A stretch of DNA of 64,000 nucleotides from a bacterium (GCA_030602615.1 JAUVZM010000001.1:73720-137719), one strand, 5' to 3'. Counted from the stretch's first letter, positions 447 through 55,723 are shown. Notes: generated from the sequence alone by a model not told the origin. Numbers and translations: made by a program.

Positions 447-506
447 CCAAGCGGCAGCGGTATCGATCTCTCTGTCTTTGGCTAACTGGGGCCATGCAGG
501 TGTTGG

Positions 507-535
507 GGCAGGAATGCCCCTCCTACCGGTTTTGG
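507..535 (+). terminator. Intrinsic terminator-like hairpin
   Basis: GGCAGGA-atgcccc-TCCTACC followed by GGTTTTGG, immediately after the stop of ORF 3..446 and before dnaE. Confidence 0.45.
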
Positions 536-624
536 AACGCTTTCTAACAATAGACCACGGGTTTTGGAGCAGTCTCTACCGGTAAATCACAGTAAACTAC
601 ACACCAATACAAGGAAACCAGCCA

Positions 625-17866: not shown

Positions 17867-17897
17867 TTGCATCGTTGTAGTGCTCCTTGTTTGTCGC

Positions 17898-17925
17898 GGC
17901 AGGAATGCCGCTCCTACCGGTTTGG
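17898..17925 (+). terminator. Intrinsic terminator after the atp operon (same hairpin sequence as 507..535)
   Basis: GGCAGGA-atgccgc-TCCTACC then GGTTTGG. Identical at 27 of 28 nt to the hairpin at 507..535. Confidence 0.5.
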
Positions 17926-18060
17926 CAATAGTTTCGTTCTGTTCATCTTGCCGGCAACAAATAGACCCCTGAGAAGGAGATAGGGCGCAGCTTAGAGAAG
18001 GGGCTATTGTGGCTTGGAATATCACTGCGAAGGCTAAAGCCTGTATAAGGGGGTTCCAAC

Positions 18061-21453: not shown

Positions 21454-21635
21454 ATCCGATGGTAAAGACCCGCATTTACCATTTGTCACTGGGAGGTAAG
21501 AGAGCTGGATGAGGCCCTGGGCTTGACCGAGTTAACGGGGCTTACGCCGGTAGCGGGTGACTATGCCCTTACTGCGGCGAAGGATCGGTGGTGTTGCGTA
21601 TGCCCAGGCGGGATTGTCTCTGCTATCGCCCCAGC

Positions 21636-21669
21636 GCTGTCATACTTGTTCAATTCGGGGCAGAATCCC
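21636..21669 (+). promoter_or_regulatory. Conserved promoter module (copy A): CTGTCA, 18-nt spacer, CAGAAT
   Basis: 31 of 34 nt identical to 30322..30355, and matches the inverted copy at 26741..26771. RBS GAGGTGG and ATG 21683 follow. Confidence 0.55.
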
Positions 21670-21682
21670 AGAGGTGGACGAA

Positions 21683-24304
21683 ATGTACAATGCCAAAGCA
21701 ACAGTGTTTTTGGCAACTCTGATGTGTGCAGTAGGACTGACAATATGTGAGGCGTACACCGAGAGCTTCCCCGGGGGGATCTTGGGGCCACGGCAATCAC
21801 AGATCCCGGCGGCGCAGTGGACGAAGGCCGAGTTAGACAAGGGGTACGTGGTCTTCACGCATAGCACCTTGGAGGGCCTTCAACCCGACTACGTGCCCGC
21901 GCGGAGAGCGGTCGTCGGCAAGGTATCCTGTGCCCTGGCCCAGGGTGAGTACAAGTCCGTGCAGATCGGCGTCCACTCGCTGACCGGAGGCCTTCAGAGC
22001 GTGCGCCTGGAGCTTGAATCGGACCTGGAGGCCAGGATATACCGCTCCATTGACGGGGAGACGAGGAAGCTGCTTCTGGGATATGAGAACCCCGTGCCTG
22101 ACTCGATCCATGCCGTGTGTCTGGACGAGTCGAGCCGGATCGCCTCGATCGAGAAAGGGAGCACCTCCTTTTTCTGGGTGACCCTTCATGCAGAGGAGAA
22201 CGCCACTGCAGGCAAGCACCGTGGCAAGATGCTTATCCGACCCGCGGGCAGGCCTGCCACGGAACTGGATCTGGAGGTGACCGTAAGGCCCTTCAAACTC
22301 CAGCGCGCCAGAATTGCCTACGCTCCGTTCTTCTACGTGGAGTGGAAGCCGGGGGCGCTCCCCAAGTTCGCCCAGACCGACGAGTGGATCGGCGCCTTCT
22401 TCCGCGACATGGCCGAGCACTCGCACACCTCCGTCATCATACACGGCGCGGGATTCGTGGACTTCTCCAGGCTCCCCCCTCCGGAGAACCGGTACTTCTC
22501 TACGCTGCTCCCTCTGGCCAAGCAGGTGGGTCTGACCAGCCCCGGCATCCCCATCATCGTTATGGACCACAACATGGCCCGGAGGCAAGACCAAGGCGGG
22601 ATGGAGACCGTGGAGCAGAGGAATGCGGCTATGGACTGGTACGAGGCAGAACGGCGCAAGCACGGCTGGCCGGAGATCGCCGCTTATGGCCAGGATGAAC
22701 CATCTTATCCGCATCCTGTTGTTCGGAGGAACTGGGAGTGGTTCCGCGATGTACGGATGCGGCTAGCCACCGCGTTGTTTGCCCCGGCAGCGTACGGGTT
22801 CGGAGATTTCCACGATATCTGGATTGTGATTGGGGGAAGTATCACGCAGGAGATGGTCGCGGAGGCCGAGCGGATGGGCGCGGAAGTGTGGACCTACATC
22901 TGTACGCCCATGTCCAACAATCCCCTGCACGAACGCCACTATGCAGGCCTGTACGTCTGGGCATACGGATTGAAAGGTCATACCACGTGGCATCACTATG
23001 ACGGGGGCGAGTTCAAGCTCGTGTGGATGCGGGAAGGCGACCAGCGCCCGATGCCGCTGGTCGGGTGGGAGACCCGTCGCGAAGGCGTTGACGACTACCG
23101 TTATCTGCAGATGCTGGAGGACTGCGTTGCGGCCCAGCCGGGCAATCCCCTGGCCGCTGAGGCGAAGAAGTGGATAGCCGGCCTGCGCGCCCGAATCGTC
23201 ACAGCGGATCCCTACATCCGAAACGTTCCTGGAAAGCCTTTGGCCCTGGATGAGTATGACCGTATCCGCGAGAAAGCGGCGGGGTACATCCAAAGGTTGG
23301 GTCCAGTACCGGCGGACCGGATTCCCCCGAGTCCACCCACACGCCTGAAAGACGAGGCGAAGCTCTTCCGAGGCAAGCCCGTGCAAGAGTGCATCGCCGG
23401 CCTCAGGAGCACGCAGGCCTCCACCCGTCGCGCGGCAGCATGGGCTCTGTTCGAAAAAGGCTGGCAGGCCGCCCCGGCTGTGCCAGCTCTGACGGACTTG
23501 CTGGACGACACCGATGTGCGCATACCGGCGTTGCGGGCGCTGGAGGCGATCGGGCATGAGAGCCGCCCGGCCCTGCCGAAACTGACAGCGCTCCTGAAAC
23601 ATCCGGACGGGTTCGTGCGACTGGGCGCCATTCACGCCCTGGGCGCCATCGGAGCACCTTCCATTCATGCGCTGATGCAAGCGACGGGAGACGAGTATTG
23701 GCCAGCCAAGTGCCGTGCCGCGAACTACATGCCGTGGATGGCAGGACAAGCAGCTCTGCGATCGGCGATGCCCGCCGTGCTGCCGGTCCTGATCAAGCTA
23801 CTCGACGATCCTAGCCCGAATGTGTGGACGTCGACTTTGTGGGCCTTCGAGCTCATCGGCCCGGAAGCTGCGCCCGCCGTGCCGCACATCATCAGGCTCA
23901 TACAGGGAGTTGTCCCAACTACCCGTCTCCGCTACCATAAACGCTGGACCGATGCACTGGCAGCCATCGGACCCGGAGCGGCGCAAGCCGTACCCATGTT
24001 GGAGGAGTTCCGCAAGGACCACGGCTCTTCAGATCCGCTCGCGGAAGCCTATGCGTTAAACGCGCTGTACAGAATCAGGGGCTCGCCGGAGGACCTCCAC
24101 GCGCTCGTCGCCCTGATCAGCGGCGCCGGAGAGGGACCGATAGACGCATCCGCGGCCCTGCAAAAGCTGGAGGAACTGGGCAGCGAGGCGAGAGACGCCG
24201 CGCCCCAGATCCGGGAGCTGATCGCTCAGGGCGGCCTGAGCGACGACGTGAAGAAGCGGCTTGAGGCAGTCCTCGATTCGATAGCCGCCCCGGCCGGCGA
24301 GTGA
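21683..24304 (+). CDS. Secreted GH123-like (DUF4091) putative beta-N-acetylhexosaminidase fused to C-terminal HEAT/PBS-lyase-like repeats
   Basis: Signal peptide MYNAKATVFLATLMCAVGLTICEA. Central region is paralogous to ORF 26984, sharing the G.DEPS motif, WTY.C block and REGV(D/E)DYR(Y/L)L motif. The C-terminal ~300 aa are repeated AAPAVPALTDLLDD / ALRALEAIG HEAT-like units. Start set to ATG 21683; the tool ORF starts at 21557. Confidence 0.6.
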   Translation: MYNAKATVFLATLMCAVGLTICEAYTESFPGGILGPRQSQIPAAQWTKAELDKGYVVFTHSTLEGLQPDYVPARRAVVGKVSCALAQGEYKSVQIGVHSLTGGLQSVRLELESDLEARIYRSIDGETRKLLLGYENPVPDSIHAVCLDESSRIASIEKGSTSFFWVTLHAEENATAGKHRGKMLIRPAGRPATELDLEVTVRPFKLQRARIAYAPFFYVEWKPGALPKFAQTDEWIGAFFRDMAEHSHTSVIIHGAGFVDFSRLPPPENRYFSTLLPLAKQVGLTSPGIPIIVMDHNMARRQDQGGMETVEQRNAAMDWYEAERRKHGWPEIAAYGQDEPSYPHPVVRRNWEWFRDVRMRLATALFAPAAYGFGDFHDIWIVIGGSITQEMVAEAERMGAEVWTYICTPMSNNPLHERHYAGLYVWAYGLKGHTTWHHYDGGEFKLVWMREGDQRPMPLVGWETRREGVDDYRYLQMLEDCVAAQPGNPLAAEAKKWIAGLRARIVTADPYIRNVPGKPLALDEYDRIREKAAGYIQRLGPVPADRIPPSPPTRLKDEAKLFRGKPVQECIAGLRSTQASTRRAAAWALFEKGWQAAPAVPALTDLLDDTDVRIPALRALEAIGHESRPALPKLTALLKHPDGFVRLGAIHALGAIGAPSIHALMQATGDEYWPAKCRAANYMPWMAGQAALRSAMPAVLPVLIKLLDDPSPNVWTSTLWAFELIGPEAAPAVPHIIRLIQGVVPTTRLRYHKRWTDALAAIGPGAAQAVPMLEEFRKDHGSSDPLAEAYALNALYRIRGSPEDLHALVALISGAGEGPIDASAALQKLEELGSEARDAAPQIRELIAQGGLSDDVKKRLEAVLDSIAAPAGE

Positions 24305-24528
24305 GAAATCAGCAAAATAATCTTCCAGATGGTGGAGGTGGCAGTATCCAGGGAGCTCTTTGAGCAAGTATTGGGACGAATCTGGGCCTTAACGCCCGGC
24401 ACTGGGTGACAGTGCCGTCGGCGACGGGATTATTGATAGTTAGTGTCTGGCGCAGGCCAGCCCTCACTGGAACGTGGGCTAAGTGCGATAGTGGCGCTTG
24501 AATTCTGTGACTATCTTGTTAAAACCAC

Positions 24529-26613
24529 TTACTCTCCCGCTACTGGCATCCACACGCGCATTGCGGAATCGGCGCGATTAGCCCAGGCATAATAGGGAAT
24601 AGCCGTCACCAGGACTTTGTCCCTACGCATTGTGGGTCGCGTACCTAGCGGATGATAGAGGGGACTGTTCTCCGGGGCATAGCAAACTGGCAAGGCCCGC
24701 CGGCGCAGGACGGTCACGCCGCCCAGCAGGTCGGGCTGCCACTCAGGCCGGAAGCCGCCCTCCGGGTCTGGCGTCTCGAAGACCAAGGCCAGGTCAGCCA
24801 GAACCGTGTCGGGATTATCTACACTCTCAAAGCAGTAGACTAACGGGCCACGCTGCAACGCCACACAGCCCCGGTTCTCCGCCACACGTGGATGGCTTTC
24901 CATTATTCGCACCGGCATTGGTAACTGCAGGCGGACCGTATCTCCGGGCCGCCACCGGCGTGTAAGCTTTAGATAATTGCCAGGCTCAATGGCCGCAGAC
25001 AATGGCTCATCATTCACCGCTGCCGCGGCTCCTGCTGCCCAGCCCGGAATGCGGAGGAAGAGAGTGAACTGTGCAGGTTGTTGCAAATCTAACGCGATTT
25101 CAATCTCGCCCTCCCCCGGGTACTTAGTGTCCATCTTCAGTGTGACTCGGGGGCCGTCGGGTACAGGGAGCGTGGCCTGGCAGGTATCGTAAAGGTGCAC
25201 CCAGAGGCCCTGGCGGCTGGTACTGAAGAGGTAACCGGGAACAGCCGCCAGCGTACGGTGGATGTTGGGGGGGCAGCAGTTGCACGGGAACCAGGACTGC
25301 CGCTGGTAGCCGCCGTCCGAGGCCAGCGGGTTGCCGTAGAAGTATTTGCTCCCGTCCAGAGATACGCCGGACAGAAAGCCATTGTATAGAATCGTCTCCA
25401 TCACATCCGCATACTGGGCCTCGCCCGTCAGCAGCAACATGCGCCAGGCCCACATTGCGTGCGCGATCTGTGCACAGCTCTCGGCATAGGCCCAGGTGAG
25501 TTCGTTATAGTGCGCCCGCGGTCCAGGGAAATACCCCCATCGTCCCCCGTGTTGTGAAGGCCGTGTACCGGTGGTGTCGGCCCAGGCGTTAGGCAGCTCG
25601 TACCGCTCACCGAAAGACTCGCCGCGAGCCCCCATGCCACCAGTGATGTAGATCTTACCTCCGACTAAGTCCTGCCACAAGGACTGCAGGTTGGCCCACA
25701 TCTGCTCGTCGCCAGTTTCAGCATAATAGTCAGCTCCGCCACAGCAGAGATAGCCGGACCGGACGGCGTGACCTACCACGATGCGATTGTTTAGATATTG
25801 GGACTGGCCCAAGAAGAAGGCAGCGAGGTCCCAATAGCGCGTCCTACCGGTGGTGCGGTACAGTTCGATCAGGGCCATTTCCACCTCGGGATGTCCGGGG
25901 GCGGCCTCGATTTTTCCGGGGCCAAACTCCTGGCATATATAATCAGCGAGGCGGCAGGCCACTTGCAGCAAACTGTCCTGGCCGGTGGCCCGGTAGTAGG
26001 CAATCGCCGCCTGCACTAGATGCCCGGCGCAGTACAGCTCATCGGGGCAAGTGTTGAGGAACAAGCGGCCGTCTTCGCCCTGGGCGGCTGCGATGTCGTC
26101 AATAATTGCTGCCACCGTTTGCCGCAGTTCAGGCAGATCCTGCGACTGGAGAGCCCAGGAGACCCCCTCCAGCCACTTATACAGGTCAGATTCGCTGCCG
26201 TAAGAAGCGTCCCGGAATTCAACCTGCTTGCGTCCGGACAGGCGCCGGAAATTATCCACCACCCCATGCTCCTCCATTAGACGTAGGAAAGTGGGCATTC
26301 CCTCCTTGGCATTGGCCTCCATTCGCGGCCGCCAAAAGCCTGGCCCCATTGCTACCGCCCGGATCGGCACCGATTGCAACCGAAACTGCGACCCCCGGCG
26401 GGTATCGACAACGCCGCCTTGTTGCCACTGGTCCTCCGGTTGTAGTTCCCTATCTTCGACAATGCCGCCGTTGGGGTCAAAACCTGTGCGTGCCACGACA
26501 CCCTCAGGCACCGGTCTGAAGGCTGGTTTAGCTTTTCCTGCACGAATCACGCTAACAAGCAATGCGCAAACACCAACTAGCACCAACAAGTCAGACAGTC
26601 TCATGTTCTTCAC
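24529..26613 (-). CDS. GH127 (DUF1680) beta-L-arabinofuranosidase-like glycoside hydrolase
   Basis: 694 aa. N-terminal signal anchor. GH127-type GFWRPRMEANAKEGMPTFLRLMEEHGVVDNFRR block and Cys-rich catalytic region. GTG start. Confidence 0.75.
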   Translation of the reverse strand: MKNMRLSDLLVLVGVCALLVSVIRAGKAKPAFRPVPEGVVARTGFDPNGGIVEDRELQPEDQWQQGGVVDTRRGSQFRLQSVPIRAVAMGPGFWRPRMEANAKEGMPTFLRLMEEHGVVDNFRRLSGRKQVEFRDASYGSESDLYKWLEGVSWALQSQDLPELRQTVAAIIDDIAAAQGEDGRLFLNTCPDELYCAGHLVQAAIAYYRATGQDSLLQVACRLADYICQEFGPGKIEAAPGHPEVEMALIELYRTTGRTRYWDLAAFFLGQSQYLNNRIVVGHAVRSGYLCCGGADYYAETGDEQMWANLQSLWQDLVGGKIYITGGMGARGESFGERYELPNAWADTTGTRPSQHGGRWGYFPGPRAHYNELTWAYAESCAQIAHAMWAWRMLLLTGEAQYADVMETILYNGFLSGVSLDGSKYFYGNPLASDGGYQRQSWFPCNCCPPNIHRTLAAVPGYLFSTSRQGLWVHLYDTCQATLPVPDGPRVTLKMDTKYPGEGEIEIALDLQQPAQFTLFLRIPGWAAGAAAAVNDEPLSAAIEPGNYLKLTRRWRPGDTVRLQLPMPVRIMESHPRVAENRGCVALQRGPLVYCFESVDNPDTVLADLALVFETPDPEGGFRPEWQPDLLGGVTVLRRRALPVCYAPENSPLYHPLGTRPTMRRDKVLVTAIPYYAWANRADSAMRVWMPVAGE

Positions 26614-26771
26614 TTCTTCTTTCAGCGAGATTTCCCAGATGCTTTGTTGCTGCCTGTAGCATCCTCTGTTTACTGCACTGCTTCCTCCCGATGCGGATCA
26701 TTTAGCTAGAAAAACTCCAGATTAGAACACTTCTGACGAAGATTCTACCCCGAATTGAACAAGTTTGACAA
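26591..26771 (-). promoter_or_regulatory. Conserved promoter + leader + uORF cassette (copy C, oriented with GH127)
   Basis: On the minus strand: TTGTCA, 18 nt, TAGAAT (plus coordinates 26741..26771). Leader CGTCAGAAGTgTTCTAATCT...GCATCGGGAGGAAGCAGTGCAG follows. A 23-codon uORF (26591..26662, MLQAATKHLGNL...) overlaps the GH127 start in the +1 frame. Confidence 0.55.
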
Positions 26772-26876
26772 CTTTTGGACCGATGGCAAAGACAGTCCCG
26801 CTTGGGCATAAACCCAATCACCATTGCTACAGAATAATGGTTCAACTGCTACCTATAATTCTAACACAACTGTCCC

Positions 26877-26905
26877 TTGATAGCAAGCCCCCCGTGTGCT
26901 ATAAT
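26877..26905 (+). promoter_or_regulatory. Sigma70-like promoter for ORF 26984
   Basis: TTGATA, 17 nt, TATAAT in the divergent intergenic region. Confidence 0.45.
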
Positions 26906-26983
26906 AGGAAGGTAACTTTCGCAACAGTCTCAAACAAGTAAGAGCCAAATGCTAAATCTCGATGAGAAGGAAAGGATGCTGCC

Positions 26984-28765
26984 ATGAGAATGATTGCCAA
27001 CGACTTGCGGTGTTATGTCATATGGATGCTGGCGGGTGTCTGGTGCGTGGCACTGATGACAAGCGCGTTCGCGGCGGCTGAGCAAGCCGACCGGGTCATG
27101 AACTGGCGCCAATATCCCACTCCTTACGGGACGCCCGCCACGGCCCGCCCGCCGGACGAGGCGTTCTTGAAGGTCATACCGCCCTTGAAGACACTGGGTA
27201 CCATCAGTGACGAGGCGAAGGAGTTGGGGGTCGCCGTCTGGTGGGCCGACTACGGGCAGAATGTCTTTTGCGAGCAGCCGCCGACCGACGAGGACCTCGC
27301 GCGCAAGGGCGCAATCCGCACGAGCGCGGGCGAGGACGAGCCGTTGGTCCTGGCGCTGTGGGGGCTCGACGACGTGGGCAATGCGACGCTTAGCGCGAAC
27401 GCCCCGGTCTTCCCGGTCACGATCCGCAAAGTGGAGTTTGAGCCCCGGTACATCCCGGGCGACTACCGGGACTATCACATCGACGGTGGGCGCAAGGTGG
27501 GCATTCCCACGTATCTGCCGGAAGAATCGAGCGTCGTGGTGAAGGCTGGCGAGAACGCGCCGTTCTGGGTGACGGTGTCCGTGCCCGAGGACGCCGCGCC
27601 CGGGACTTACGAGATTCCGTTCCGGTTGATCCTCACGGACGCGAACAAGGCCGTGACGCTCGCGGTCACGGTCGAGGTGCTGCCGTTCGAGCTGCCGCGG
27701 GCGAAGATCGCCTACGGTATGTATTTTCGCCCCTCGGCGAAGACGCTCGAGAACCCGCGCGACCGCACGCCGGAGCGGCTGCGTTTCTACTGGCGAGATA
27801 TGGCACGTCATGGCATGACAAGTGCGACCCTCTACAACTACACTCGCCTGCACGATCCTGAGGGGAATCTCAATCTCCACACCGTGCCGGTGCTGGGGTG
27901 GCTTGAGGAGATGATCGAGGAAGGGCTCGTCACGCCGGACGTGCCCGTCATGTACCTGGACGGCGGCGGGATCGACCTGGCGAACCCCAAGACGCCGGAG
28001 ATCCTCGCCTCGCTCAAGGAGGAGATCGCCGAGCGCGGCTGGCCGGAATTCCTCTACTACGGGCCCGACGAGCCGTCGGTCAATGACAAGGGCTGGGCGG
28101 ATTTCGAACGCCTGCAGCCCTTGCGCGAGTATTTTCGCGTCGTCACCGCGATCGGCGATCACGCGGTAAACGCGTATGCGGATTTTCTGGATGTTTATAT
28201 CGTGAACGCCGGTTGCACGAGCCCGGAAATGTACAAGCTGGCTGCCGACAAGGACGCGGAGCTGTGGACCTACACATGTCACAATCGAGGGCGAAGCAAT
28301 GCGCCGTTCCAGCGATACTACGCGGGCATTTTCACGTGGGCGCTGCGCCTGAAGGGAAACTTCATGTGGGCTTACACCGAGAACTATACGCGGGAAAAGG
28401 GTCAGTATCTTCCCTGGTCTCCGCTGTACTGTTACGTGGTTCCCAGCGACGAAGGAGCGATCCCGTCGATCGCCTGGGAAGTCCGCCGGGAGGGTGTGGA
28501 GGACTATCGCCTGCTTACGCTCCTGGAAGAACAGATAGCGAAGAATCCTGACAACACGGTCGCTGCCGAAGCGAGAGACTGGCTGGAGCAACTGCGCGGG
28601 CGCGTTGACTGGTATATCGCGCGCGACATGCCACCGTCGCTGTATCCGTGGGACGGTCCAGAACTCTATCCGCTCTGCCCGAACTTCGAACCGGCGGAGT
28701 TCTCGAAGATCCGGGCCAAGGTGATCGATTACATTCTTCAGTTGAGCAGCGCCGCCGGCGGCTAG
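26984..28765 (+). CDS. Secreted GH123-like (DUF4091) protein, paralogue of 21683
   Basis: 593 aa. Signal peptide. Shares the LPRAKIAYG, YGPDEPS, WTYTC and REGVEDYRLL blocks with the 915-aa protein. Confidence 0.6.
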   Translation: MRMIANDLRCYVIWMLAGVWCVALMTSAFAAAEQADRVMNWRQYPTPYGTPATARPPDEAFLKVIPPLKTLGTISDEAKELGVAVWWADYGQNVFCEQPPTDEDLARKGAIRTSAGEDEPLVLALWGLDDVGNATLSANAPVFPVTIRKVEFEPRYIPGDYRDYHIDGGRKVGIPTYLPEESSVVVKAGENAPFWVTVSVPEDAAPGTYEIPFRLILTDANKAVTLAVTVEVLPFELPRAKIAYGMYFRPSAKTLENPRDRTPERLRFYWRDMARHGMTSATLYNYTRLHDPEGNLNLHTVPVLGWLEEMIEEGLVTPDVPVMYLDGGGIDLANPKTPEILASLKEEIAERGWPEFLYYGPDEPSVNDKGWADFERLQPLREYFRVVTAIGDHAVNAYADFLDVYIVNAGCTSPEMYKLAADKDAELWTYTCHNRGRSNAPFQRYYAGIFTWALRLKGNFMWAYTENYTREKGQYLPWSPLYCYVVPSDEGAIPSIAWEVRREGVEDYRLLTLLEEQIAKNPDNTVAAEARDWLEQLRGRVDWYIARDMPPSLYPWDGPELYPLCPNFEPAEFSKIRAKVIDYILQLSSAAGG

Positions 28766-29082
28766 TGCGCCCCAACCGGGATCGTCAGCTTTGAGACGTT
28801 TGGGCCTGCATTATAGAGAGCGCACAACTTGCCCGGCCGCCAGCGCGGACGGGAGCCATAGACCTTGAGCCTGAAGATGTCCTCCTCAACTCGGTAGCAA
28901 GACGTAGCCAGCAGCTCGCCGCCGGGCAACAGTGCTACGGAGGTTTTATAGATGTCCCGCTGCCCGATGCGAACCCGCATGGCCGGTTGAAGGGTCCAGT
29001 GGACCACCTGCTGCAAGTCGAAGCCAGTAAAGCCAGCCATCCCTTCCGGGTACTGGGCATAGTCTGGCTCTTCGGCGAACAC
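28762..29082 (-). CDS. Short hypothetical ORF, possibly a gene remnant
   Basis: 106 aa from a GTG start. The stop overlaps the convergent GH123-like gene. No domain recognised. Its upstream end runs into leader copy 1. Confidence 0.2.
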   Translation of the reverse strand: MFAEEPDYAQYPEGMAGFTGFDLQQVVHWTLQPAMRVRIGQRDIYKTSVALLPGGELLATSCYRVEEDIFRLKVYGSRPRWRPGKLCALYNAGPNVSKLTIPVGAH

Positions 29083-29111
29083 CGGCGCCGTAGCCGGCTC
29101 GATTGGCGCCG

Positions 29112-29289
29112 CCCCGTCAGAAGTCTTCTAATCTCGGGTCTTTCTAGCTAATTGATTCGCATCCGGAGGAATTAGTGCAGGAAATAGAGAATGTCAAACG
29201 TAGTAACAAACGATATGAGAGACCCCAGTTCACTGTCATCCAGGCATTCCTGGTGCTCTGGCTCGACTAAGGGGGAAAGGAATAACGCT
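29112..29289 (+). promoter_or_regulatory. Conserved leader + uORF cassette (copy 1, lacks the -35/-10 module)
   Basis: CCCCGTCAGAAGTCTTCTAATCTCGGGTCTTTCTAGCTAATTGATTCGCATCCGGAGGAATTAGTGCAGGAAATAGAGAATG, about 90 % identical to copy 2. The uORF ATG at 29191 (MSNVVTNDMRDPS...) runs in frame into the PIG-L gene. Confidence 0.55.
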
Positions 29290-30198
29290 ATGTCTAAAAG
29301 ACCGCTCGTAGTCGAGAATATTCTGCCGGACGAAAACATTAACATCCTGGTCGTTGGTGCGCATCCGGCTGATGCGTTTGATGATATCGGCGGCACGCTG
29401 GCCCATCACGCGGCCCGGGGCGATCACATCACCGCCTTAATCCTGACACACGGAGCGCGTGTCCACGATGTGGTCTTGACCGATGAGGTGGGCCAGCGCG
29501 AGCGCGCTCCCACCCGCGAGGAACTGGAGCCCATCATCGAGGAGCGCACGAGCGTGAAGCACCAGGAAGTCCTGGAAGCCTGCCAGATTCTAGGGTTCTC
29601 CGACTTGCGCTTCCTCACCTACGACGACAGCGTCCTGACCCTAAAAGAGGAGCTCATGCAGAGGATCGCTAAAGTCATTCGAGAGGTGCAGCCGCATCTC
29701 CTCATTACTCACTATCCCCTCGAAAGCGGAGGCATCGCCAGCCACCATGCTATCACGGGCCAACTGGTCCTCAATGCCGTGGGGTCGGCCTCCAGAGTCT
29801 CGCCTGAAGACCCTAACCCCCCATGGGGGGTGCCCGAGGTCTATTTCAAGGCCATCCATACGGCACTGGCGAGGCCAGACGTGCTGAGTCACGCTACTGC
29901 AGGCTTTGCCAATGTCTATGTGGACGTCACCGACGTCATCGAACTCTTAGTCAAGGCTCTGGACAAGATGAAGAGCCAACAGTACAACGGTGCCTGGGCC
30001 CGTAAATCCCGCGAGGTGTACGAGGGCGTCTTTGGCCTCAATGTCGGTGTCGCCTACGCCGAAGCGTTCATCCGCCTTAGGGCACAAGTCTGCGATTACC
30101 TGCCCCTCTCACACTATGCCATGGCAAGGGCTAACGAGCTTGAAGCCACTGAGCACCGTCGCCAGAACCTCCTAGTGTGCCATACAGTGCCTGAATAG
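29290..30198 (+). CDS. PIG-L / LmbE-family N-acetylglucosaminyl deacetylase
   Basis: ILVVGAHPADAFDDIGGTLAHH (HPDD-type motif) and the H..H zinc region. RBS AAGGGGGAAAGGA before ATG 29290. The tool ORF starts at the upstream in-frame ATG 29191. Confidence 0.7.
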   Translation: MSKRPLVVENILPDENINILVVGAHPADAFDDIGGTLAHHAARGDHITALILTHGARVHDVVLTDEVGQRERAPTREELEPIIEERTSVKHQEVLEACQILGFSDLRFLTYDDSVLTLKEELMQRIAKVIREVQPHLLITHYPLESGGIASHHAITGQLVLNAVGSASRVSPEDPNPPWGVPEVYFKAIHTALARPDVLSHATAGFANVYVDVTDVIELLVKALDKMKSQQYNGAWARKSREVYEGVFGLNVGVAYAEAFIRLRAQVCDYLPLSHYAMARANELEATEHRRQNLLVCHTVPE

Positions 30199-30321
30199 TC
30201 GTACAGTGGTCTTTATGTTGTCAACTGTATCAGTATGCGGGTGGATATGGCAGGTGCACCAAGCGGCGGTTGTTCTGTCTGATGTTGCCAAGGCAGGAGT
30301 GTCTCTGCCCTGGGCCCGCAA

Positions 30322-30508
30322 GCTGTCATACTTGTTCAGTTCGGCGCACAATCCCCGTCAGAAGTCTTCTAATCTCGGGTCTTTCTAGCTAATTAATCCG
30401 CATCGGAGGAATTAGTGCAGCAAACAGAGAATATGAGTAGTCCCAGATTAGTGCAGGAAACAGAGAATGTTGAACGTACTGGCAAAGCATATGAGAAATC
30501 CCAGCTAA
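30322..30508 (+). promoter_or_regulatory. Conserved promoter + leader + uORF cassette (copy 2)
   Basis: CTGTCA, 18 nt, CACAAT module, then the same ~80-nt leader with an internal 22-nt duplication (ATTAGTGCAGcAAACAGAGAAT repeated). 13-codon uORF at 30467..30508 (MLNVLAKHMRNPS). Located upstream of the MttB-like gene. Confidence 0.55.
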
Positions 30509-30554
30509 CCAAAACCCCAAGCCGACGAGTTAGCCTACCATTGTAGGGAGATTA

Positions 30555-31979
30555 TTGGAATTGATTACTTTCCGCCTCGACGGTGGGTTCACGGAAGCCC
30601 AACTGGATCAGGTATACAGCGAAACTTTCCAGGTACTTGAGGAAATCGGCGTGGAGGTCGGCGACGACGAGATTCGTCAGTATCTGGGAGAGTTACCGGG
30701 CATCTCCGTGCGAGGCACACGGGTCTGCTATGCCCCCAGCCTGGTGAAAGAATGGATCGAAGTCATCAAAGAGGACAATCTTGAGTACGCTTACAACCGC
30801 AAAGACGGCCGCATCCGGATGGTCGGACCGTACATGGGACAGTACTATCACGACCCAGACACCGACGAGGTGCGGCTAGCGACCGGGGCGGATATGAGCC
30901 TTGCGGTGAAGCTGTGCGACGCCCTTGACTTCTACGGTCCCTCGCCGATCCACCTGCAGACCGTCCCTCCACCTGTTCGCCAAGTGACGACCTTCAAGAT
31001 CTGTGTGGAGAACAGCCGAGAAGTCGGTGGCTGGGGGCCGGCGGCCACCGAGAAGGACGGATACTGGCTGTGCCAGATTGGTGAAGCGGCAGGGCGCCAG
31101 CCTCCGCACTGCTGTATGGAGATCCCCATCAGCCCCCTGCGGCTCAACCACAAGGCTCTACGGATGATTTACAATCGCCGTAATCAGGATGATCAACTGA
31201 CCGGCATGGTACTGGGCGGCGGGGTTGTGCCGATGCCTGGAGCAACGGCGCCCATCTTTGCGCCAGCCTGCTTTATCCAGAGCATGGCCGAGGCCCTGGC
31301 CGCCTACATCACCCCTCAGTTAATTGATCCCCGAGTGCAGGGGTACTGCTCGTTCGGCGGTAAGCTGTTCGATCTGCGGCGTATGACCCCAAGTATTATG
31401 TTTCCCGAGACTGCCCTGTACACCAGCTTGGTCCGGCAGGTCATTCAGCGTTTCTTAGGTGAGACGATGGGCGGTCAACTCGCCGATGTGGGTATCATGA
31501 AAAGATTCGAAGACTACAGTGTGGACGGGTTTGGCAGCCCACAGGCCACCCTTGAGTTGGGCTTCCGCATAGCCCTGGACATCCTGGCCGGTGCGCGCAC
31601 CTTCCTGGGAGTAGGTGGGTACGGTGATGGCTTCTGTCCCGTGACGGCGGTTATTGAGGCCGACCTGGTGAACCACTTTACTAAATTCATTGCTGGCTGC
31701 GCATACCGTTATGAACCCGGGATCAATCTACGCACTATGACCGAGGCCCTGGAGGACAAAAACTACCTGGCGCATCCCACGACGCTAGAGTATCGTGAGC
31801 TGTATCTAATCCCAGAGTTGGTCTTCAGGCATGACACGCGCCCGGAACTGGTCGCCGCCGCTTGGGAGAAGGCCCAACAGATAGTCGCCGAGCACGACTA
31901 TGCGCTGCCCGAGGACGTACAGCGCAACGTCACAGAAGTCTACGAAGCGGCGTGTGCAGACCTACTGGAAGGGAAGTAG
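30555..31979 (+). CDS. MttB-superfamily methyltransferase, non-pyrrolysine member (quaternary-amine:corrinoid methyltransferase-like)
   Basis: 474 aa, TTG start after GGGAG. PMPGATAPIFAPACFIQSMAEALAAYIT resembles the MttB GATAP...AGxL block. No in-frame amber codon. Confidence 0.55.
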   Translation: MELITFRLDGGFTEAQLDQVYSETFQVLEEIGVEVGDDEIRQYLGELPGISVRGTRVCYAPSLVKEWIEVIKEDNLEYAYNRKDGRIRMVGPYMGQYYHDPDTDEVRLATGADMSLAVKLCDALDFYGPSPIHLQTVPPPVRQVTTFKICVENSREVGGWGPAATEKDGYWLCQIGEAAGRQPPHCCMEIPISPLRLNHKALRMIYNRRNQDDQLTGMVLGGGVVPMPGATAPIFAPACFIQSMAEALAAYITPQLIDPRVQGYCSFGGKLFDLRRMTPSIMFPETALYTSLVRQVIQRFLGETMGGQLADVGIMKRFEDYSVDGFGSPQATLELGFRIALDILAGARTFLGVGGYGDGFCPVTAVIEADLVNHFTKFIAGCAYRYEPGINLRTMTEALEDKNYLAHPTTLEYRELYLIPELVFRHDTRPELVAAAWEKAQQIVAEHDYALPEDVQRNVTEVYEAACADLLEGK

Positions 31980-51201: not shown

Positions 51202-51249
51202 TAAGCCCCTGCTCCGCAAATGACCTCGCGTAGTCTTCCGCCGCCTTAC

Positions 51250-51390
51250 GGAAAGAGCCCCAGGTAGCTGATTGCTCCGCCAATCGCGCGGGAGTCGGTC
51301 AGCGTCAGGTCCACCCGCCAGGAACGGTCGGGAGCCGCGCGCAGCCCGTAGTTGAACCAGTCGGTGTCGTATTCCCCGATTACTGCCAGG
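51250..51390 (-). pseudogene. Duplicated 3'-terminal fragment (about 47 codons plus stop) of the YjbH-like gene at 52444..54708
   Basis: About 94 % nucleotide identity to 52447..52589. The frame is intact and encodes ...VIGEYDTDWFNYGLRAAPDRSWRVDLTLTDSRAIGGAISYLGLFP*. Confidence 0.6.
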
Positions 51391-52443: not shown

Positions 52444-54708
52444 CTAGGGAAAGATGCCCAGGTAGCTGACCGCGCCGCCAATCGCGCGGGAATCGGTCAG
52501 CGTCAGGTCCACCCGCCAGGAACAGTCGGGAGCCGCGCGCAGCCCGTAGTTGAACCAGTCGGTGTCGTATTCCCCGATTACCGCCAGGGTTGGGGAAAGG
52601 CGGTATTCCGCCCCGCCGAACAGCCCACTAAGCCGCTTCGTGCCTCTGCCCAGGTGTACGCGGAGGTCACCCAGTTGCTGCGTTGCCACGATGTATTCGG
52701 CACGGCCGACGACCTCAGCGTCATCGCGGAAGCTGATGTCCTGGGCACCAATGGCAACAGCCGGGACATTGCCGTGCTGCGGCCAGAGCTGATAGTGGGC
52801 AAATACGCTGCGGTCAGTGCTGTAGTCCCAATTGGGAAAGTGGAGTGGTTCGATATCGGGAAATATGCTCAGGCGGAAGCCCAGCTCCAGGCCAGGAAGC
52901 AGCCCCACGTTGACAAAGGTGGGAATCATATCGCTGCGGTCGGCATGGGCTCCCCTGGTGTAGTCGGAATCTATGAAGCTAGCACCGACCCGATAGCTGC
53001 CATCGGGGATCACATTGGCCGTCGGTATGCGGATCAGGCCAGAAATGCCCTCGTGGGAGGGCCCCGGGATCCAGCTTTGCTTGGACATATCCCGGCGCTG
53101 GCTTGCCTGACGGCGAGAGTCAGCCGTCAGGTATGGCCCACTCAATTCGCCGCGGAAGGCGCGCAAGTCATGATCTCCCCGTAACATCTCTGTCCCTGGC
53201 GTCCCCCTATCGGTGAAGTAATCAAGAGCCAGGTAGTCAGAGGTGCGCAACCGCAAGGGCGCGGGATCATCAACCCGGCGCGGGCCAAACGGTACGGTCA
53301 CCCGCACGATTCCTTCACGCACTGGTGAGTGAACTGTTATGCCCGCCCTGAGAGTGCTCTCACCGAAACGCCGGTCCAGCTCCACCAGGCCAGTGGGGTC
53401 TATGTAGTCGGCGAACTGGCCCGCCGTGGCTCGGATGGTCAGTCCGAGGTTGCCAAACTCGTGTTCGTAGTATCCCAGCCACATGGGAATGTCAAGGTCC
53501 CAGTCGTCACGGCCCACTCGGGCCAGGCGCACACCGGCCCGCCCGTCGCCCAACTCTAATTGGGCCTCGCCAAAGGCTCCGCGCAGGCGGGTGTCGAATC
53601 GGCCCGCGCTGGCAGTCCAAAGCACTCGACCACCCATGAGTCGTCCGGTCCTGGTCAGCAAGGCGTGACTTAAGTGTGCGCCTGGGTTGTCGGCTTGCAG
53701 GCTGCCCTGCAGCGACATGCGCCAGCCCGGTGCGATGGTGGTGCTAAGCTGGGGCAGCACGAACCAGTCGGTAATGATCGGACGACGCCAGTTACCGATC
53801 TCGTAGTCCAGGGCTGGGCGGAAGCTCAGATCAAAGCGCCCAAAGCTTTCGTTGAGCAGCCCACTGCTGTCGGCCACCGCGCCATCGGGCGCCGTCGGAC
53901 GAGTTTCCCTCAGTCCCTCCGGAACAGCGCCGGGCTTTGGCAATTGCTGAGATTTGTCGGCTTTGGTGGTGACGGTGATAACGGGCACGTCGTCGCGCTT
54001 GGCCGTCAGATACAAAACCGTGCCTGCCGAACAATGCTGAGAAGCAATCTGCGCTGCTATGCCCAGTGCCTCTGTATCGCTGCGGTAGGTACGGTTTTCA
54101 TATTCTATAGCTATGTGGCCGGATTCGAGCAGGCTTACTGCGACGTTTTCCAGTCCGGCCCCGACAAGGGCCTGTCCTATCTTTGAGGCGAAGCCAGGCT
54201 GCAGGCTCGGTGGCTTGGTGGTTGTGGGGCGTGGGGCAGGCTCTGCCTGGAGCGTTTGGTATCCGGGTTCACCGGGTTGCCCAATCTGCGGTGCGCCTGT
54301 GGCGGCTGCCGCTTGCTGCAGGAGCCTGCCGGCCTCCGCCATAGCCTCGGATCCGGCATTTCTCTCGGCGAAATGCATAAGGCCAGAGGGGCTGGTGGAA
54401 AACTCGAGAAAGTGCCGGCCCTCGCGCCGGGCGATGACACAGACTTTGTCGCAGCCACCGATGATATCCTGGGTGCCAACAGCGATTAGGGCAAGTGCTA
54501 GCTTATCCGAGAACTGTTTGCTGAAGGCGTATGTGATGGATAGCTCGTTGTTCTGACGCTCGAAGCTGACTTCCTGCAATCCGCAGGCAACAAGTAGCTG
54601 CTTGCCCTCCTGCTGGGCAGTGCCGCCTTCAGCGTACCCGGCAACGGCGACTAGGCCACATACGAGCATCCATGCAACGATACGCCATTCAGAACGTCGC
54701 ACCAGCAT
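52444..54708 (-). CDS. YjbH/GfcD-family-like putative outer-membrane beta-barrel protein (polysaccharide-export associated)
   Basis: 754 aa. Signal peptide. SGLIRIPTANVIPDGSYRVGASF resembles the YjbH GLL.mPtAr.. motif. Beta-rich with alternating aromatic residues, C-terminal aromatic end. Confidence 0.4.
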   Translation of the reverse strand: MLVRRSEWRIVAWMLVCGLVAVAGYAEGGTAQQEGKQLLVACGLQEVSFERQNNELSITYAFSKQFSDKLALALIAVGTQDIIGGCDKVCVIARREGRHFLEFSTSPSGLMHFAERNAGSEAMAEAGRLLQQAAAATGAPQIGQPGEPGYQTLQAEPAPRPTTTKPPSLQPGFASKIGQALVGAGLENVAVSLLESGHIAIEYENRTYRSDTEALGIAAQIASQHCSAGTVLYLTAKRDDVPVITVTTKADKSQQLPKPGAVPEGLRETRPTAPDGAVADSSGLLNESFGRFDLSFRPALDYEIGNWRRPIITDWFVLPQLSTTIAPGWRMSLQGSLQADNPGAHLSHALLTRTGRLMGGRVLWTASAGRFDTRLRGAFGEAQLELGDGRAGVRLARVGRDDWDLDIPMWLGYYEHEFGNLGLTIRATAGQFADYIDPTGLVELDRRFGESTLRAGITVHSPVREGIVRVTVPFGPRRVDDPAPLRLRTSDYLALDYFTDRGTPGTEMLRGDHDLRAFRGELSGPYLTADSRRQASQRRDMSKQSWIPGPSHEGISGLIRIPTANVIPDGSYRVGASFIDSDYTRGAHADRSDMIPTFVNVGLLPGLELGFRLSIFPDIEPLHFPNWDYSTDRSVFAHYQLWPQHGNVPAVAIGAQDISFRDDAEVVGRAEYIVATQQLGDLRVHLGRGTKRLSGLFGGAEYRLSPTLAVIGEYDTDWFNYGLRAAPDCSWRVDLTLTDSRAIGGAVSYLGIFP

Positions 54709-55209: not shown

Positions 55210-55723
55210 TCCAACTGCACCTCCGTTCAAGTTGTAGGTTCCTGGGCAGGGTGCTTCGCAGTACAGCTGGGCGCTGCTGGCGGGCCAGCCCCTTCTGCTC
55301 TGCGTGCCATTGGCGAAAGTTGTGGCCTCTTCTCAGCTATCCTCCACCTGAGCAGGCCACATTCTCATCTGTATCGCCAATGTCCCTGCACCACCCTATC
55401 TGCAATTGGTGTGCCAGACTTCTCACCCTACAGGAATCTCCCACCACGACAGCGCATTTTTCTGGCGTACTCGGGTTTAGGTTGACAATTTATGGGTAAT
55501 ATATTGACATTCTTGCCACAATTGACAGATAACTGCCAAACTGGCTAGCAGGCAGTTCTTGGAACTGCCATCAAAGCAGCCTTAGGCCAGTTTGAAACTA
55601 CAGTTTATGCCGTCTGGGGGGCAGGCGCAACACGCGCCGCTCCCCAGGCGGCATTTTCTTTTGTGCAAGCAAATCGCCGTGATGACAAGCTGCATAGCGC
55701 AAGTGAACATTAGGAGGTACATG

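What the first reader, a model, noticed from the sequence alone, without database searches (positions are those of the whole stretch)
26591..30508. Short uORF embedded in each leader copy; in one copy it fuses in frame to the PIG-L gene
Each leader ends in ...AGAGAATG, and that ATG opens a short ORF.
- Copy 2: MLNVLAKHMRNPS*, 13 aa.
- Copy C: MLQAATKHLGNLAERRSEEHETV*, 23 aa, overlapping the GH127 GTG start in the +1 frame.
- Copy 1: MSNVVTNDMRDPSS... continues for 33 codons straight into the PIG-L ORF, which has its own good RBS and ATG at 29290.

The shared pattern is M-[SL]-[NQ]-[VA]-x-[TA]-[NK]-[DH]-[ML]-x-[DN]. The GGAGGA in the leader lies 20 nt upstream of the uORF ATG.

This could be a leader peptide for attenuation or translational coupling. 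Alternatively the peptide similarity is only a by-product of nucleotide conservation; the sequence alone does not decide between these.
Basis: partly seen in the sequence, partly recalled or inferred. Interest (0 to 1): 0.6.

Follow-up and report, generated by a model that had tools for sequence, protein, structure and literature searches.

The report
Chance mini-ORF in copied promoter-leader cassette
The three short "upstream ORFs" are real in the sequence, but they look like an accidental reading frame inside a promoter-plus-leader DNA cassette copied in front of several unrelated sugar-processing genes, not a conserved regulatory peptide.

Summary
ATGs at 29191, 30467 and 26662(-) open the three ORFs exactly as described. 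They lie in the 3' third of a ~115-nt leader module. That module is the downstream half of a ~190-230-nt cassette with a sigma-70-like promoter, placed before non-homologous genes (GH127, PIG-L, MttB-like). A fourth copy, promoter only, precedes a HEAT-repeat gene.

I recovered eight more copies from close, probably Armatimonadota, relatives (L003, L013, L014, L046). Seven cover the start-codon position.
- The start is lost in 2 of the 10 copies that cover it: ATG to ATA, and a 14-nt deletion.
- The whole leader is missing before the window's HEAT gene but present in three relatives.
- ORF ends vary: 13, 17, 23 or 48 codons, or fusion to PIG-L.
- A column-permutation test finds no excess of synonymous or conservative changes (P=0.73, 0.39).
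- The ORF part is less conserved than the untranslated part upstream (73% against 80% pairwise identity).
- There is no attenuator, no Rfam hit and no conserved fold.

The peptide similarity is a by-product of nucleotide identity in a propagated promoter-leader cassette. Sequence-independent translation of the mini-ORF is not excluded.

The parts
26591..26662 (-). Mini-ORF of copy C (23 codons plus stop). It overlaps the GH127 start codon (ATG 26604) out of frame.
26624..26738 (-). Leader module of copy C: the inferred 5' UTR from about the transcription start to the end of inter-copy similarity.
26741..26811 (-). Promoter part of copy C. It holds -35 TTGTCA (26771-26766), an 18-nt spacer and -10 TAGAAT (26747-26742).
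   Evidence: The consensus scan gives 10 of 12 matches. The part is shared with copy 2, copy 4 and L003.
29112..29230 (+). Leader module of copy 1. It has no promoter part upstream.
29191..29289 (+). Mini-ORF of copy 1: 33 codons read in frame into the PIG-L coding sequence.
29290..30198 (+). PIG-L family deacetylase gene with its own SD (GGGGGAAAGGA).
30262..30352 (+). Promoter part of copy 2. It holds -35 CTGTCA (30323-30328) and -10 CACAAT (30347-30352).
   Evidence: The hexamers were assigned by alignment to copy C.
30353..30505 (+). Leader module of copy 2. It includes a truncated extra 36-nt unit (30411-30446) and a complete 3' unit (30447-30505).
   Evidence: (D7, D8, D9)
30467..30508 (+). 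Mini-ORF of copy 2 (13 codons plus stop).
30433..30546 (+). Second small ORF (37 codons) opened by the truncated unit. It overlaps the 13-codon ORF in another frame.
21554..21669 (+). Promoter-only copy 4, with -35 CTGTCA (21637-21642) and -10 CAGAAT (21661-21666). It has no leader, and the HEAT-repeat gene ATG follows at 21683.
   Evidence: (D15, I4)

Best explanation
The mini-ORFs are an incidental open frame in the 3' third of a shared 5' leader. That leader is the downstream half of a propagated promoter-plus-leader cassette.

The cassette has these parts:
- An upstream block of about 70-115 nt containing a sigma-70-like promoter: -35 TTGTCA or CTGTCA, an unusually conserved 18-nt spacer ACTTGTTCAATTCGGGG, and -10 TAGAAT or CAGAAT.
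- A leader of about 115 nt that starts at the inferred transcription start. It opens with a small palindrome (AGAAG-T-CTTCT). It continues as a purine-rich, essentially unstructured stretch containing GGAGGA and ...CAGGAAACAGAGAATG.... It ends with a second small palindrome, TGGGAAATCCCA.

Copies of the cassette, whole or truncated, sit in the sense orientation 18-240 nt upstream of non-homologous genes of one glycan-processing cluster. The copies have been reshuffled by recombination and gene conversion between them.

Shown here:
- the repeat and its orientation;
- the non-homology of the genes served;
- loss of the ATG or of the whole leader in relatives;
- absence of a coding signature and of a conserved RNA fold;
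- a recombination breakpoint inside the leader.

Inferred:
- the upstream block fires transcription and carries a shared operator;
- the leader is a 5' UTR that gives these genes common expression properties;
- the ATG-initiated peptide has no sequence-specific role.
For: 1. Repeat structure.
- Three leader copies plus one promoter-only copy lie in the window.
- A Logan contig carrying PIG-L breaks in the repeat at both ends, and the L046 contig starts inside a leader.

2. Promoter.
- The consensus scan picks TTGTCA-18-TAGAAT immediately upstream of leader C.
- In copy 4 the same block is followed 16 nt later by an ATG with a GAGGTGGA SD. It therefore works as a stand-alone upstream region without the leader.

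3. Genes served.
- GH127, PIG-L, MttB-like and HEAT-repeat genes in the window.
- GFO/IDH/MocA and an unknown protein in L013.
- A Cu_amine_oxidN1 protein in L003/L018, whose other genes are unrelated to the window.

4. More copies.
- Found at L013 9751-9930, 12917-12992, 16713-16531(-), 18953-19131 and 20190-20357; L014 2260-2445 and 5287-5469; L003 8627-8444(-); L046 1-30.
- Every copy is in the sense orientation of the next gene.

5. Fate of the ORF in these copies.
- The ATG is ATA in L003, confirmed in L018 and L019.
- A 14-nt deletion removes it in L013 20190-20357.
- The leader is absent before the window's HEAT gene but present before its 90-92% identical orthologues.
- Where the ATG is kept, ORF length is 13, 13, 17, 17, 23, 23 or 48 codons, or the ORF is fused to PIG-L (twice). 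The L003 frame also stops after 13 codons.

6. No coding signature.
- The synonymous fraction is 0.144 against a null of 0.181 (P=0.73).
- Mean BLOSUM62 of changed codons is 0.35 against 0.20 (P=0.39).
- Frame +2 and two antisense frames are equally free of stops.
- All six nucleotide differences between orthologous mini-ORFs of the window and L013 are nonsynonymous. The adjacent PIG-L gene has 10 synonymous and 13 nonsynonymous differences.

7. Conservation.
- The ATG triplet is kept in 8 of the 10 aligned copies, and 38% of all leader triplets do at least as well.
- Pairwise identity is 0.80 for the untranslated part and 0.73 for the ORF part.

8. No attenuator and no fold.
- Fold z-scores are +0.37, -0.26, +1.63 and +0.62.
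- The RNAalifold consensus is -6.5 kcal/mol with a covariation term of -0.29.
- No terminator-like site lies in or just after a leader.
- Rfam gives nothing.

9. Recombination.
- Window-to-L013 identity stops inside leader 2 at 30430, and different genes follow.
- Orthologous leaders differ in dense patches (12 of 40 nt, 8 of 25 nt) set in flanks that differ by 1-3%.
Against: - The ATG and the AGAGAATG block are present in 8 of the 10 copies that cover the start, and the first 13 codons carry no frameshift in any of them.
- Codon 14 is a stop in 3 copies (TAA, TAA, TGA) and one substitution away from TAA in four more (TCA twice, GAA twice). This fits an ancestral 13-codon ORF ending where the repeat ends.
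- Codon 2 is Leu through four different codons (TTG, TTA, CTA, CTG).
- A weak SD-like AGGA sits 8-9 nt upstream in most copies, with duplex energies of -2.9 to -6.6 kcal/mol.
- The coding test has low power: 12 codons and 10 related sequences.
- Promoter activity, the transcription start and the existence of the 5' UTR are inferred from consensus matches only.
- All copies come from a narrow clade. Some conservation may therefore be recency rather than constraint.
Confidence: 0.7

Rival explanations
1. The mini-ORF is translated and this matters, but independently of the peptide. Ribosomes loaded near the 5' end at the GGAGGA or AGGA sites and the ATG would protect the transcript from 5'-end-dependent decay, keep the leader unfolded, or deliver ribosomes to the downstream start. 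The last would be termination-reinitiation in the GH127 copy, and an N-terminally extended product in the PIG-L copy.
For: - The ATG is kept in 8 of the 10 copies that cover it.
- A weak SD lies at a workable spacing.
- The leader is purine-rich and unstructured.
- The GH127 start has the weakest SD of the cluster (-2.4 kcal/mol), and the mini-ORF ends 11-14 nt past it.
- A peptide-independent role predicts exactly the dN/dS of about 1 that was observed.
- Precedent: ribosome binding or short leader ORFs near the 5' end stabilise the ermC, ompA, gsiB and aprE mRNAs (review PMC7509114).
Against: - Two copies have lost the start.
- One gene has lost the whole leader, with no sign of decay in its coding sequence.
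- The ATG is no more conserved than its neighbours.
- The AGGA is replaced by GTAA, GCAA or GGCC in four copies.
- The distance and frame relative to the downstream start differ in every copy.
Confidence: 0.17
2. The mini-ORF is a classical regulatory leader peptide. It would act either as an attenuation sensor (trpL or hisL type) or as a nascent arrest peptide (ErmCL, TnaC or MgtL type) whose sequence is selected.
For: The copies share the peptide pattern M-L-[NQD]-[VA]-[AV]-T-[KND]-[HD]-[MLIV]-[GR]-[ND]-P-S.
Against: - There is no excess of synonymous or conservative change.
- There is no run of codons for one amino acid.
- No alternative hairpins or U-tract terminator occur downstream.
- Start loss and a frameshifting deletion are found in relatives.
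- ORF length is variable.
- Pfam and NCBIfam give no family hit.
- The downstream genes share no common metabolite logic.
Confidence: 0.03
3. The conservation reflects a structured cis-regulatory RNA or a protein-binding element in the leader. The second half of the mini-ORF (codons 9-13, ATGGGAAATCCCAG) would be conserved because it forms a small hairpin or palindrome, paired conceptually with the palindrome at the 5' end.
For: The two 4-bp terminal hairpins are paired in 94% of cells. They show two compensatory changes: A-U to G-C in L014, and G-C to C-G in L003. Only 20-58 of 500 shuffles reach the observed values, and slid controls fall to 28-58% paired.
Against: - The stems are only 4 bp long.
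- The tool's own false-positive rate for related sequences is 5-25%.
- The overall consensus fold is negligible.
- The long-range helix seen in the copy 1 and copy 2 folds has no covariation: 333 and 424 of 500 shuffles do as well.
- The CTAATT/AATTAG hairpin is not kept in copy C or L003.
- Rfam gives no hit.
Confidence: 0.1

Closest known systems
Propagated or 'putative mobile' promoters (PMPs; Matus-Garcia, Nijveen and van Passel 2012, PMC3488235)
   Same: Upstream regions of at least 50 nt with at least 80% identity sit in front of non-homologous coding sequences, both within one genome and between related genomes. They show no IS or MITE hallmarks.
   Different: - Here the unit is long (190-230 nt) and bipartite, a promoter block plus a 115-nt leader.
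- At least five copies are packed into one cluster of about 12 kb rather than dispersed.
- The copies are visibly mosaic, with recombination breakpoints inside the leader.
Attenuation leader peptides (trpL, hisL, pheL and similar)
   Same: A short ORF lies in a 5' leader upstream of the regulated gene.
   Different: There are no tandem regulatory codons, no terminator/antiterminator pair and no U-tract. The ORF is also not conserved in relatives.
5' mRNA stabilisers of Firmicutes and E. coli: the cryIIIA STAB-SD (recalled from Agaisse and Lereclus 1996, own knowledge); the ermC leader ORF and the ompA 5' stem-loop (review PMC7509114)
   Same: An SD-like GGAGGA lies far from the gene's start, a small hairpin sits at the extreme 5' end, and a short translatable ORF lies near the 5' end.
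   Different: - GGAGGA is degraded to GCAGGA in three copies.
- The hairpin has only 4 bp.
- Nothing is known about RNA decay in this lineage.
Translationally coupled overlapping upstream ORFs (termination-reinitiation)
   Same: In the GH127 copy the mini-ORF stops 11-14 nt downstream of the gene's ATG, and that gene has a weak SD.
   Different: The arrangement holds for that copy only. In the other copies the ORF ends 20-130 nt before the gene or is fused in frame to it.

Membership tests
Propagated / putative mobile promoter (PMP) | Upstream regions align over at least 50 nt at 80% identity or more | tested here: met
   The arms are 106-121 nt at 79-80% identity. The first 52 nt of copies 1 and 2 are 96% identical. 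L003 is 86% identical to copy C over 183 nt.
Propagated / putative mobile promoter (PMP) | Downstream coding sequences are not homologous | tested here: met
   The genes served have different Pfam families: GH127, PIG-L, MTTB, HEAT, GFO_IDH_MocA and Cu_amine_oxidN1. Outside the cassette, blastn finds no L003-window match and tblastx only short low-scoring ones of 33 bits or less.
Propagated / putative mobile promoter (PMP) | Upstream neighbouring coding sequences are not homologous (the whole gene was not duplicated) | tested here: met
   The upstream neighbours are GH123-like, an unassigned 106-aa ORF, PIG-L and DUF4380.
Propagated / putative mobile promoter (PMP) | The sequence actually promotes transcription | not testable with these tools
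   There is only a consensus match: TTGTCA-18-TAGAAT scores 10 of 12 in copy C. The other copies score 8 of 12 by my count.
Attenuation leader peptide | Terminator and antiterminator hairpins with a U-tract between the leader ORF and the gene | tested here: not met
   No terminator-like site lies near any leader. The folds are no better than shuffles, and the consensus fold is -6.5 kcal/mol.
Attenuation leader peptide | A run of codons for the sensed amino acid | tested here: not met
   The peptides, for example MLNVLAKHMRNPS and MLQAATKHLGNLAERRSEEHETV, have no tandem repeats of any residue.
Attenuation leader peptide | The ORF (start, frame, stop) is conserved in homologous leaders | tested here: not met
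   One copy has ATA for ATG and another a 14-nt deletion. The stop falls after 13, 17, 23 or 48 codons, or is absent where the ORF fuses to PIG-L.
Regulatory nascent arrest peptide (ErmCL, TnaC, SecM, MgtL type) | The peptide sequence is under purifying selection | tested here: not met
   Permutation test P=0.73 for the synonymous fraction and P=0.39 for BLOSUM62. None of the six orthologous differences is synonymous. Power is low.
Structured cis-regulatory RNA / riboswitch | Match to a curated RNA family | tested here: not met
   The Rfam gathering search of the window gave 0 hits. The E-value search of 26500-30650 gave only two chance hits inside the GH123-like gene (26984-28765), none in a leader.
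Structured cis-regulatory RNA / riboswitch | A conserved secondary structure supported by covariation | tested here: inconclusive
   No global structure was found. Two 4-bp terminal hairpins have weak support.
5' mRNA stabiliser (STAB-SD or 5' stem-loop type) | A strong SD-like sequence in the 5' UTR that is not used by the main gene | tested here: inconclusive
   GGAGGA or GAGAGGA occurs in 8 of 11 copies and GCAGGA in 3.
5' mRNA stabiliser (STAB-SD or 5' stem-loop type) | An effect on mRNA half-life | not testable with these tools
   This needs rifampicin-chase or reporter experiments.
MITE or IS-derived element | Terminal inverted repeats and target-site duplications at fixed ends | tested here: not met
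   The copies share no terminal inverted repeat. The copies are truncated at different internal points: promoter only, leader only, or the 3' half only.

The most novel reading that the evidence does not exclude
The cassette is a modular 'ribosome-loading' expression unit of an uncultured Armatimonadota clade. It would combine a promoter, a 5'-terminal hairpin, a stand-by GGAGGA and a sequence-independent 13-codon mini-ORF ending at the module's 3' palindrome. Together these would stabilise and prime the mRNA. Homologous recombination would move the unit from gene to gene within glycan-utilisation clusters, rewiring which genes are expressed.
Probability: 0.1. Interest if true: 0.5.

Novelty: new member of a known kind. 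Interest (0 to 1): 0.22.

Why it matters
For the scan, this removes a candidate leader-peptide regulator. The resemblance between the peptides carries no information beyond the DNA repeat.

What remains is a clear natural example of promoter and 5'-leader reuse. One cassette is wired in front of at least seven different genes in a little-studied phylum. Presence/absence polymorphism and a recombination breakpoint inside the leader separate genomes whose orthologous cluster genes are 95-98% identical.

This bears on how glycan-degradation clusters are co-regulated and rearranged. It also warns gene callers: one relative's copy was called as a 48-aa gene, and the PIG-L ORF can be over-extended by 33 codons.

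Tried and rejected
- Rfam at the gathering threshold on the window, and at an E-value threshold on 26500-30650, gave nothing relevant.
- The genome-contig scan with TTCTAGCTAANTNATNCGCATC gave only a chance hit in an AT-rich Firmicutes MAG.
- The metagenome-contig scan gave 7 loci, of which only L003 is a true homologue.
- Contexts of GH127 homologues at 61-64% identity (L010-L012) hold no cassette.
- HEAT homologues at 65-68% identity (L015-L017) hold none either. The family is therefore confined to a narrow clade.
- A search with the L003 downstream protein returned only the protein itself.
- Two viral-contig scans gave 0 and 26 matches, all chance.
- blastn of the cassette against plasmids and phages gave no match.
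- A look-up of the window's DnaE, to extend beyond the window, found no record.
- The long-range helix CUCGGGUCUUUCU with AGAGACCCCAG, predicted in the copy 1 and copy 2 folds, was rejected for lack of covariation.
- The CTAATT/AATTAG hairpin is not conserved.
- I compared the -35 region by eye with the sigma-54 (TGGCAC-N5-TTGC) and ECF consensus motifs. It fits neither.
- A MITE reading was rejected.
- Pfam and NCBIfam scans of the peptides found nothing beyond one chance-level Pfam match, EBNA2_N at E=0.021.

Full report
**Observation**

- Copy 1: an ATG at 29191 runs in frame for 33 codons into the PIG-L start at 29290, and the ORF ends at 30198.
- Copy 2: an ATG at 30467 opens MLNVLAKHMRNPS*, ending at 30508.
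- Copy C: on the minus strand, an ATG at 26662 opens a 23-codon ORF ending at 26591. It overlaps the GH127 start (ATG 26604) out of frame.

All three ATGs end the same ...AGAG(A/G)ATG block of a leader repeat. The repeat is far beyond chance. A degenerate 23-mer core matches 3 times against 0 expected, and the arms are 106-121 nt at about 80% identity.

Three details were missed.
- In copy 2 a truncated 36-nt leader unit (30411-30446) is inserted. GGAGGA is therefore 56 nt from the ATG there, not 20 nt. The inserted unit also opens a second, overlapping 37-codon ORF in another frame.
- The repeat continues upstream as a promoter-like block in copies 2 and C, but not in copy 1.
- A fourth copy at 21554-21669 has the promoter block only. 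It is followed at once by GAGGTGGA and the ATG (21683) of a HEAT-repeat gene.

**Anatomy of the repeat**

The consensus scan finds TTGTCA-18-TAGAAT (10 of 12 matches) ending 4 nt before leader C. By alignment, copies 2 and 4 carry CTGTCA-18-CACAAT and CTGTCA-18-CAGAAT. The inferred transcription start therefore falls at the first bases of the leader (CGTCAGAAG).

From 5' to 3', the leader has these features:
- a palindrome, AGAAG-T-CTTCT;
- the block TCTAATCTCGGGT(C/T)TTTCTAGCTAA;
- GGAGGA;
- ATTAGTGCAGGAAACAGAGAATG;
- about 36 nt ending in TGGGAAATCCCAG, where similarity between copies stops.

The genes served are unrelated: GH127, PIG-L, an MttB-family protein and a HEAT-repeat protein. The window itself is ordinary chromosome, carrying dnaE, hisD, ATP synthase genes, aroA, dinB and ribBA. 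The best named GH127 homologues are from Armatimonadota.

**Related sequences**

Pattern scans of the genome and metagenome collections gave one true homologue, L003. It is 86% identical to copy C over 183 nt, and its flanking genes are unrelated to the window.

Contexts of GH127 homologues at 61-64% identity and HEAT homologues at 65-68% identity contain no cassette.

HEAT-protein homologues at 90-92% identity led to three loci:
- L013, a syntenic 21.6-kb contig;
- L014 (GCA_029821545.1);
- L046.

An nhmmer profile finds five copies in L013, two in L014 and one in L003. L046 begins inside a leader. All copies are in the sense orientation, 18-240 nt upstream of a start codon.

The window and L013 are very close in this cluster, at 95-98% nucleotide identity with dS of 0.03-0.10.

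**Fate of the mini-ORF**
- L003 has ATA instead of ATG, in three assemblies.
- The L013 leader that shares its 5' part with window copy 2 has a 14-nt deletion that removes the ATG.
- The window's HEAT gene has no leader at all, while L013, L014 and L046 have one.
- Where the ATG is kept, the ORF ends after 13, 13, 17, 17, 23, 23 or 48 codons, or is fused to PIG-L (twice). It simply runs into whatever unique DNA follows. The L003 frame, which lacks the ATG, also stops after 13 codons.

**Coding and conservation tests**
- A column-permutation test used 10 copies and 12 codons. It shows no excess of synonymous differences (0.144 against 0.181, P=0.73). It shows no excess of conservative replacements either (mean BLOSUM62 0.35 against 0.20, P=0.39).
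- Frame +2 and two antisense frames are just as open.
- All six nucleotide differences between the orthologous mini-ORFs of the window and L013 change the amino acid.
- The ATG is kept in 8 of the 10 aligned copies, and 38% of all triplets in the leader are kept at least as well.
- The ORF part is less conserved than the untranslated part (0.73 against 0.80 mean pairwise identity).

**Points that still favour the ORF**
- The first 13 codons carry no indel in the nine copies that align without a gap there.
- Leu-2 is encoded by four different codons.
- Codon 14 is a stop in three copies.
- A weak AGGA sits 8-9 nt upstream, with duplex energies of -2.9 to -6.6 kcal/mol against mostly -5 to -8.5 for real genes.
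- In the GH127 copy the ORF ends just inside a gene with a poor SD (-2.4 kcal/mol).

Peptide-independent translation therefore cannot be excluded.

**RNA structure and attenuation**
- Single-sequence folds are no more stable than shuffles, with z-scores from -0.26 to +1.63.
- The RNAalifold consensus is -6.5 kcal/mol with a covariation term of -0.29.
- The long-range helix predicted for copies 1 and 2 has no covariation.
- No terminator-like site follows any leader.
- Rfam finds nothing.
- Only the two 4-bp terminal hairpins, or palindromes, have weak support. They are paired in 94% of cells, show two compensatory changes, and are matched by 20-58 of 500 shuffles.
- The 3' hairpin covers codons 9-13 of the mini-ORF. 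This gives a non-coding reason for the conservation there.

**Dynamics**
- Pairwise alignment of the window with L013 shows identity through PIG-L and the 5' two-thirds of leader 2. It stops at 30430, inside the leader.
- After that point the window has the truncated unit, a 3' unit and the MttB-like gene. L013 has a different 3' unit and an unrelated gene.
- L013 also has an extra GFO/IDH/MocA gene, preceded by only the 3' half of a leader.
- Orthologous leaders differ in dense patches (12 of 40 nt, 8 of 25 nt) within flanks that differ by 1-3%. Identity matrices are mosaic. This pattern is what gene conversion between paralogous copies would produce.
- There are no shared terminal inverted repeats.
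- There are no matches in plasmid, phage or viral collections.

**Comparison with known systems**

The cassette fulfils the operational definition of propagated 'putative mobile promoters' (PMC3488235): upstream regions of at least 50 nt with at least 80% identity before non-homologous coding sequences, with non-homologous neighbours.

It fails the defining features of attenuation leader peptides, arrest peptides, riboswitch-like RNAs and MITEs (see the membership table).

Its layout resembles 5' mRNA stabilisers, which combine a 5' hairpin, a remote SD-like sequence and a short translatable ORF (review PMC7509114). That resemblance is a lead only and has not been tested.

**Verdict**

The headline interpretation, a leader peptide, is not supported.

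What is really there is a propagated promoter-plus-leader cassette serving a glycan-processing gene cluster in a narrow Armatimonadota-like clade. It is a new member of a known kind and of modest interest.

Noticed in passing
window 30430 / L013 about 20330: Synteny between the window and its close relative L013 breaks inside leader copy 2. The 5' two-thirds of the leader are shared, and then different 3' units and different genes follow (MttB-like against an unknown 418-aa protein). The leader acts as a recombination junction.
   Followed up: partly
window 24305-24528 against L013 12917-14325: L013 carries an extra GFO/IDH/MocA oxidoreductase gene between the HEAT and GH127 genes, preceded by only the 3' half of a leader. 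The mini-ORF there was called as a 48-aa gene. The window lacks this gene.
   Followed up: partly
window 21554-21683 against L013 9751-10001, L014 2260-2542 and L046 1-100: The HEAT-repeat gene has a full leader in three relatives, but in the window only the promoter block and a roughly 10-nt 5' UTR. The window's promoter block resembles the L003 and L014_b type rather than the orthologous L013 one.
   Followed up: partly
window 26709-26747 and 29140-29165: Differences between the window and L013 are concentrated in short patches of the leaders (12 of 40 nt and 8 of 25 nt), while the flanks differ by 1-3%. This suggests gene conversion between paralogous leader copies.
   Followed up: partly
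window 21683-30198 (cluster genes) against L013: pN/pS between the window and L013 is unusually high in the cluster: about 0.9 for the GH123-like gene and 0.4-0.55 for HEAT, GH127 and PIG-L. The neighbouring DUF4380 gene has a much higher dS (0.45 against 0.03-0.10), which hints at a recent transfer or sweep of the cluster.
   Followed up: no
L018 44-4632 (same contig as L003): The only cassette copy found in the L003 organism sits next to phage-integrase, resolvase/recombinase and pentapeptide-repeat genes, a setting that looks like a mobile element.
   Followed up: no
L001 both ends; L046 5' end: Short-read (Logan) contigs break inside the leader repeat. This independently indicates that it is multi-copy in these genomes.
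   Followed up: yes
window 28762-29082 (-): A 106-codon minus-strand ORF fills the gap between the GH123-like gene and leader copy 1. It has no Pfam hit, but it was called as a 114-aa gene in L013. Whether it is real bears on how PIG-L is transcribed, since copy 1 has no promoter block.
   Followed up: partly
window 55829-56643: Five to six tandem 132-nt (44-codon) repeats at 62-81% identity lie inside the ORF 55592-56650. This is probably a repeat-domain (propeller-like) protein.
   Followed up: no
window 51247-51390 and 52445-52588: A 144-nt direct repeat at 94% identity, with copies 1.2 kb apart.
   Followed up: no
window 501-544 and 17892-17935: A 44-nt repeat at 82% identity contains a GC-rich hairpin (GGCAGGAATGCC). 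It lies upstream of dnaE and of a DeoC-like gene, and may be another small intergenic repeat family.
   Followed up: no
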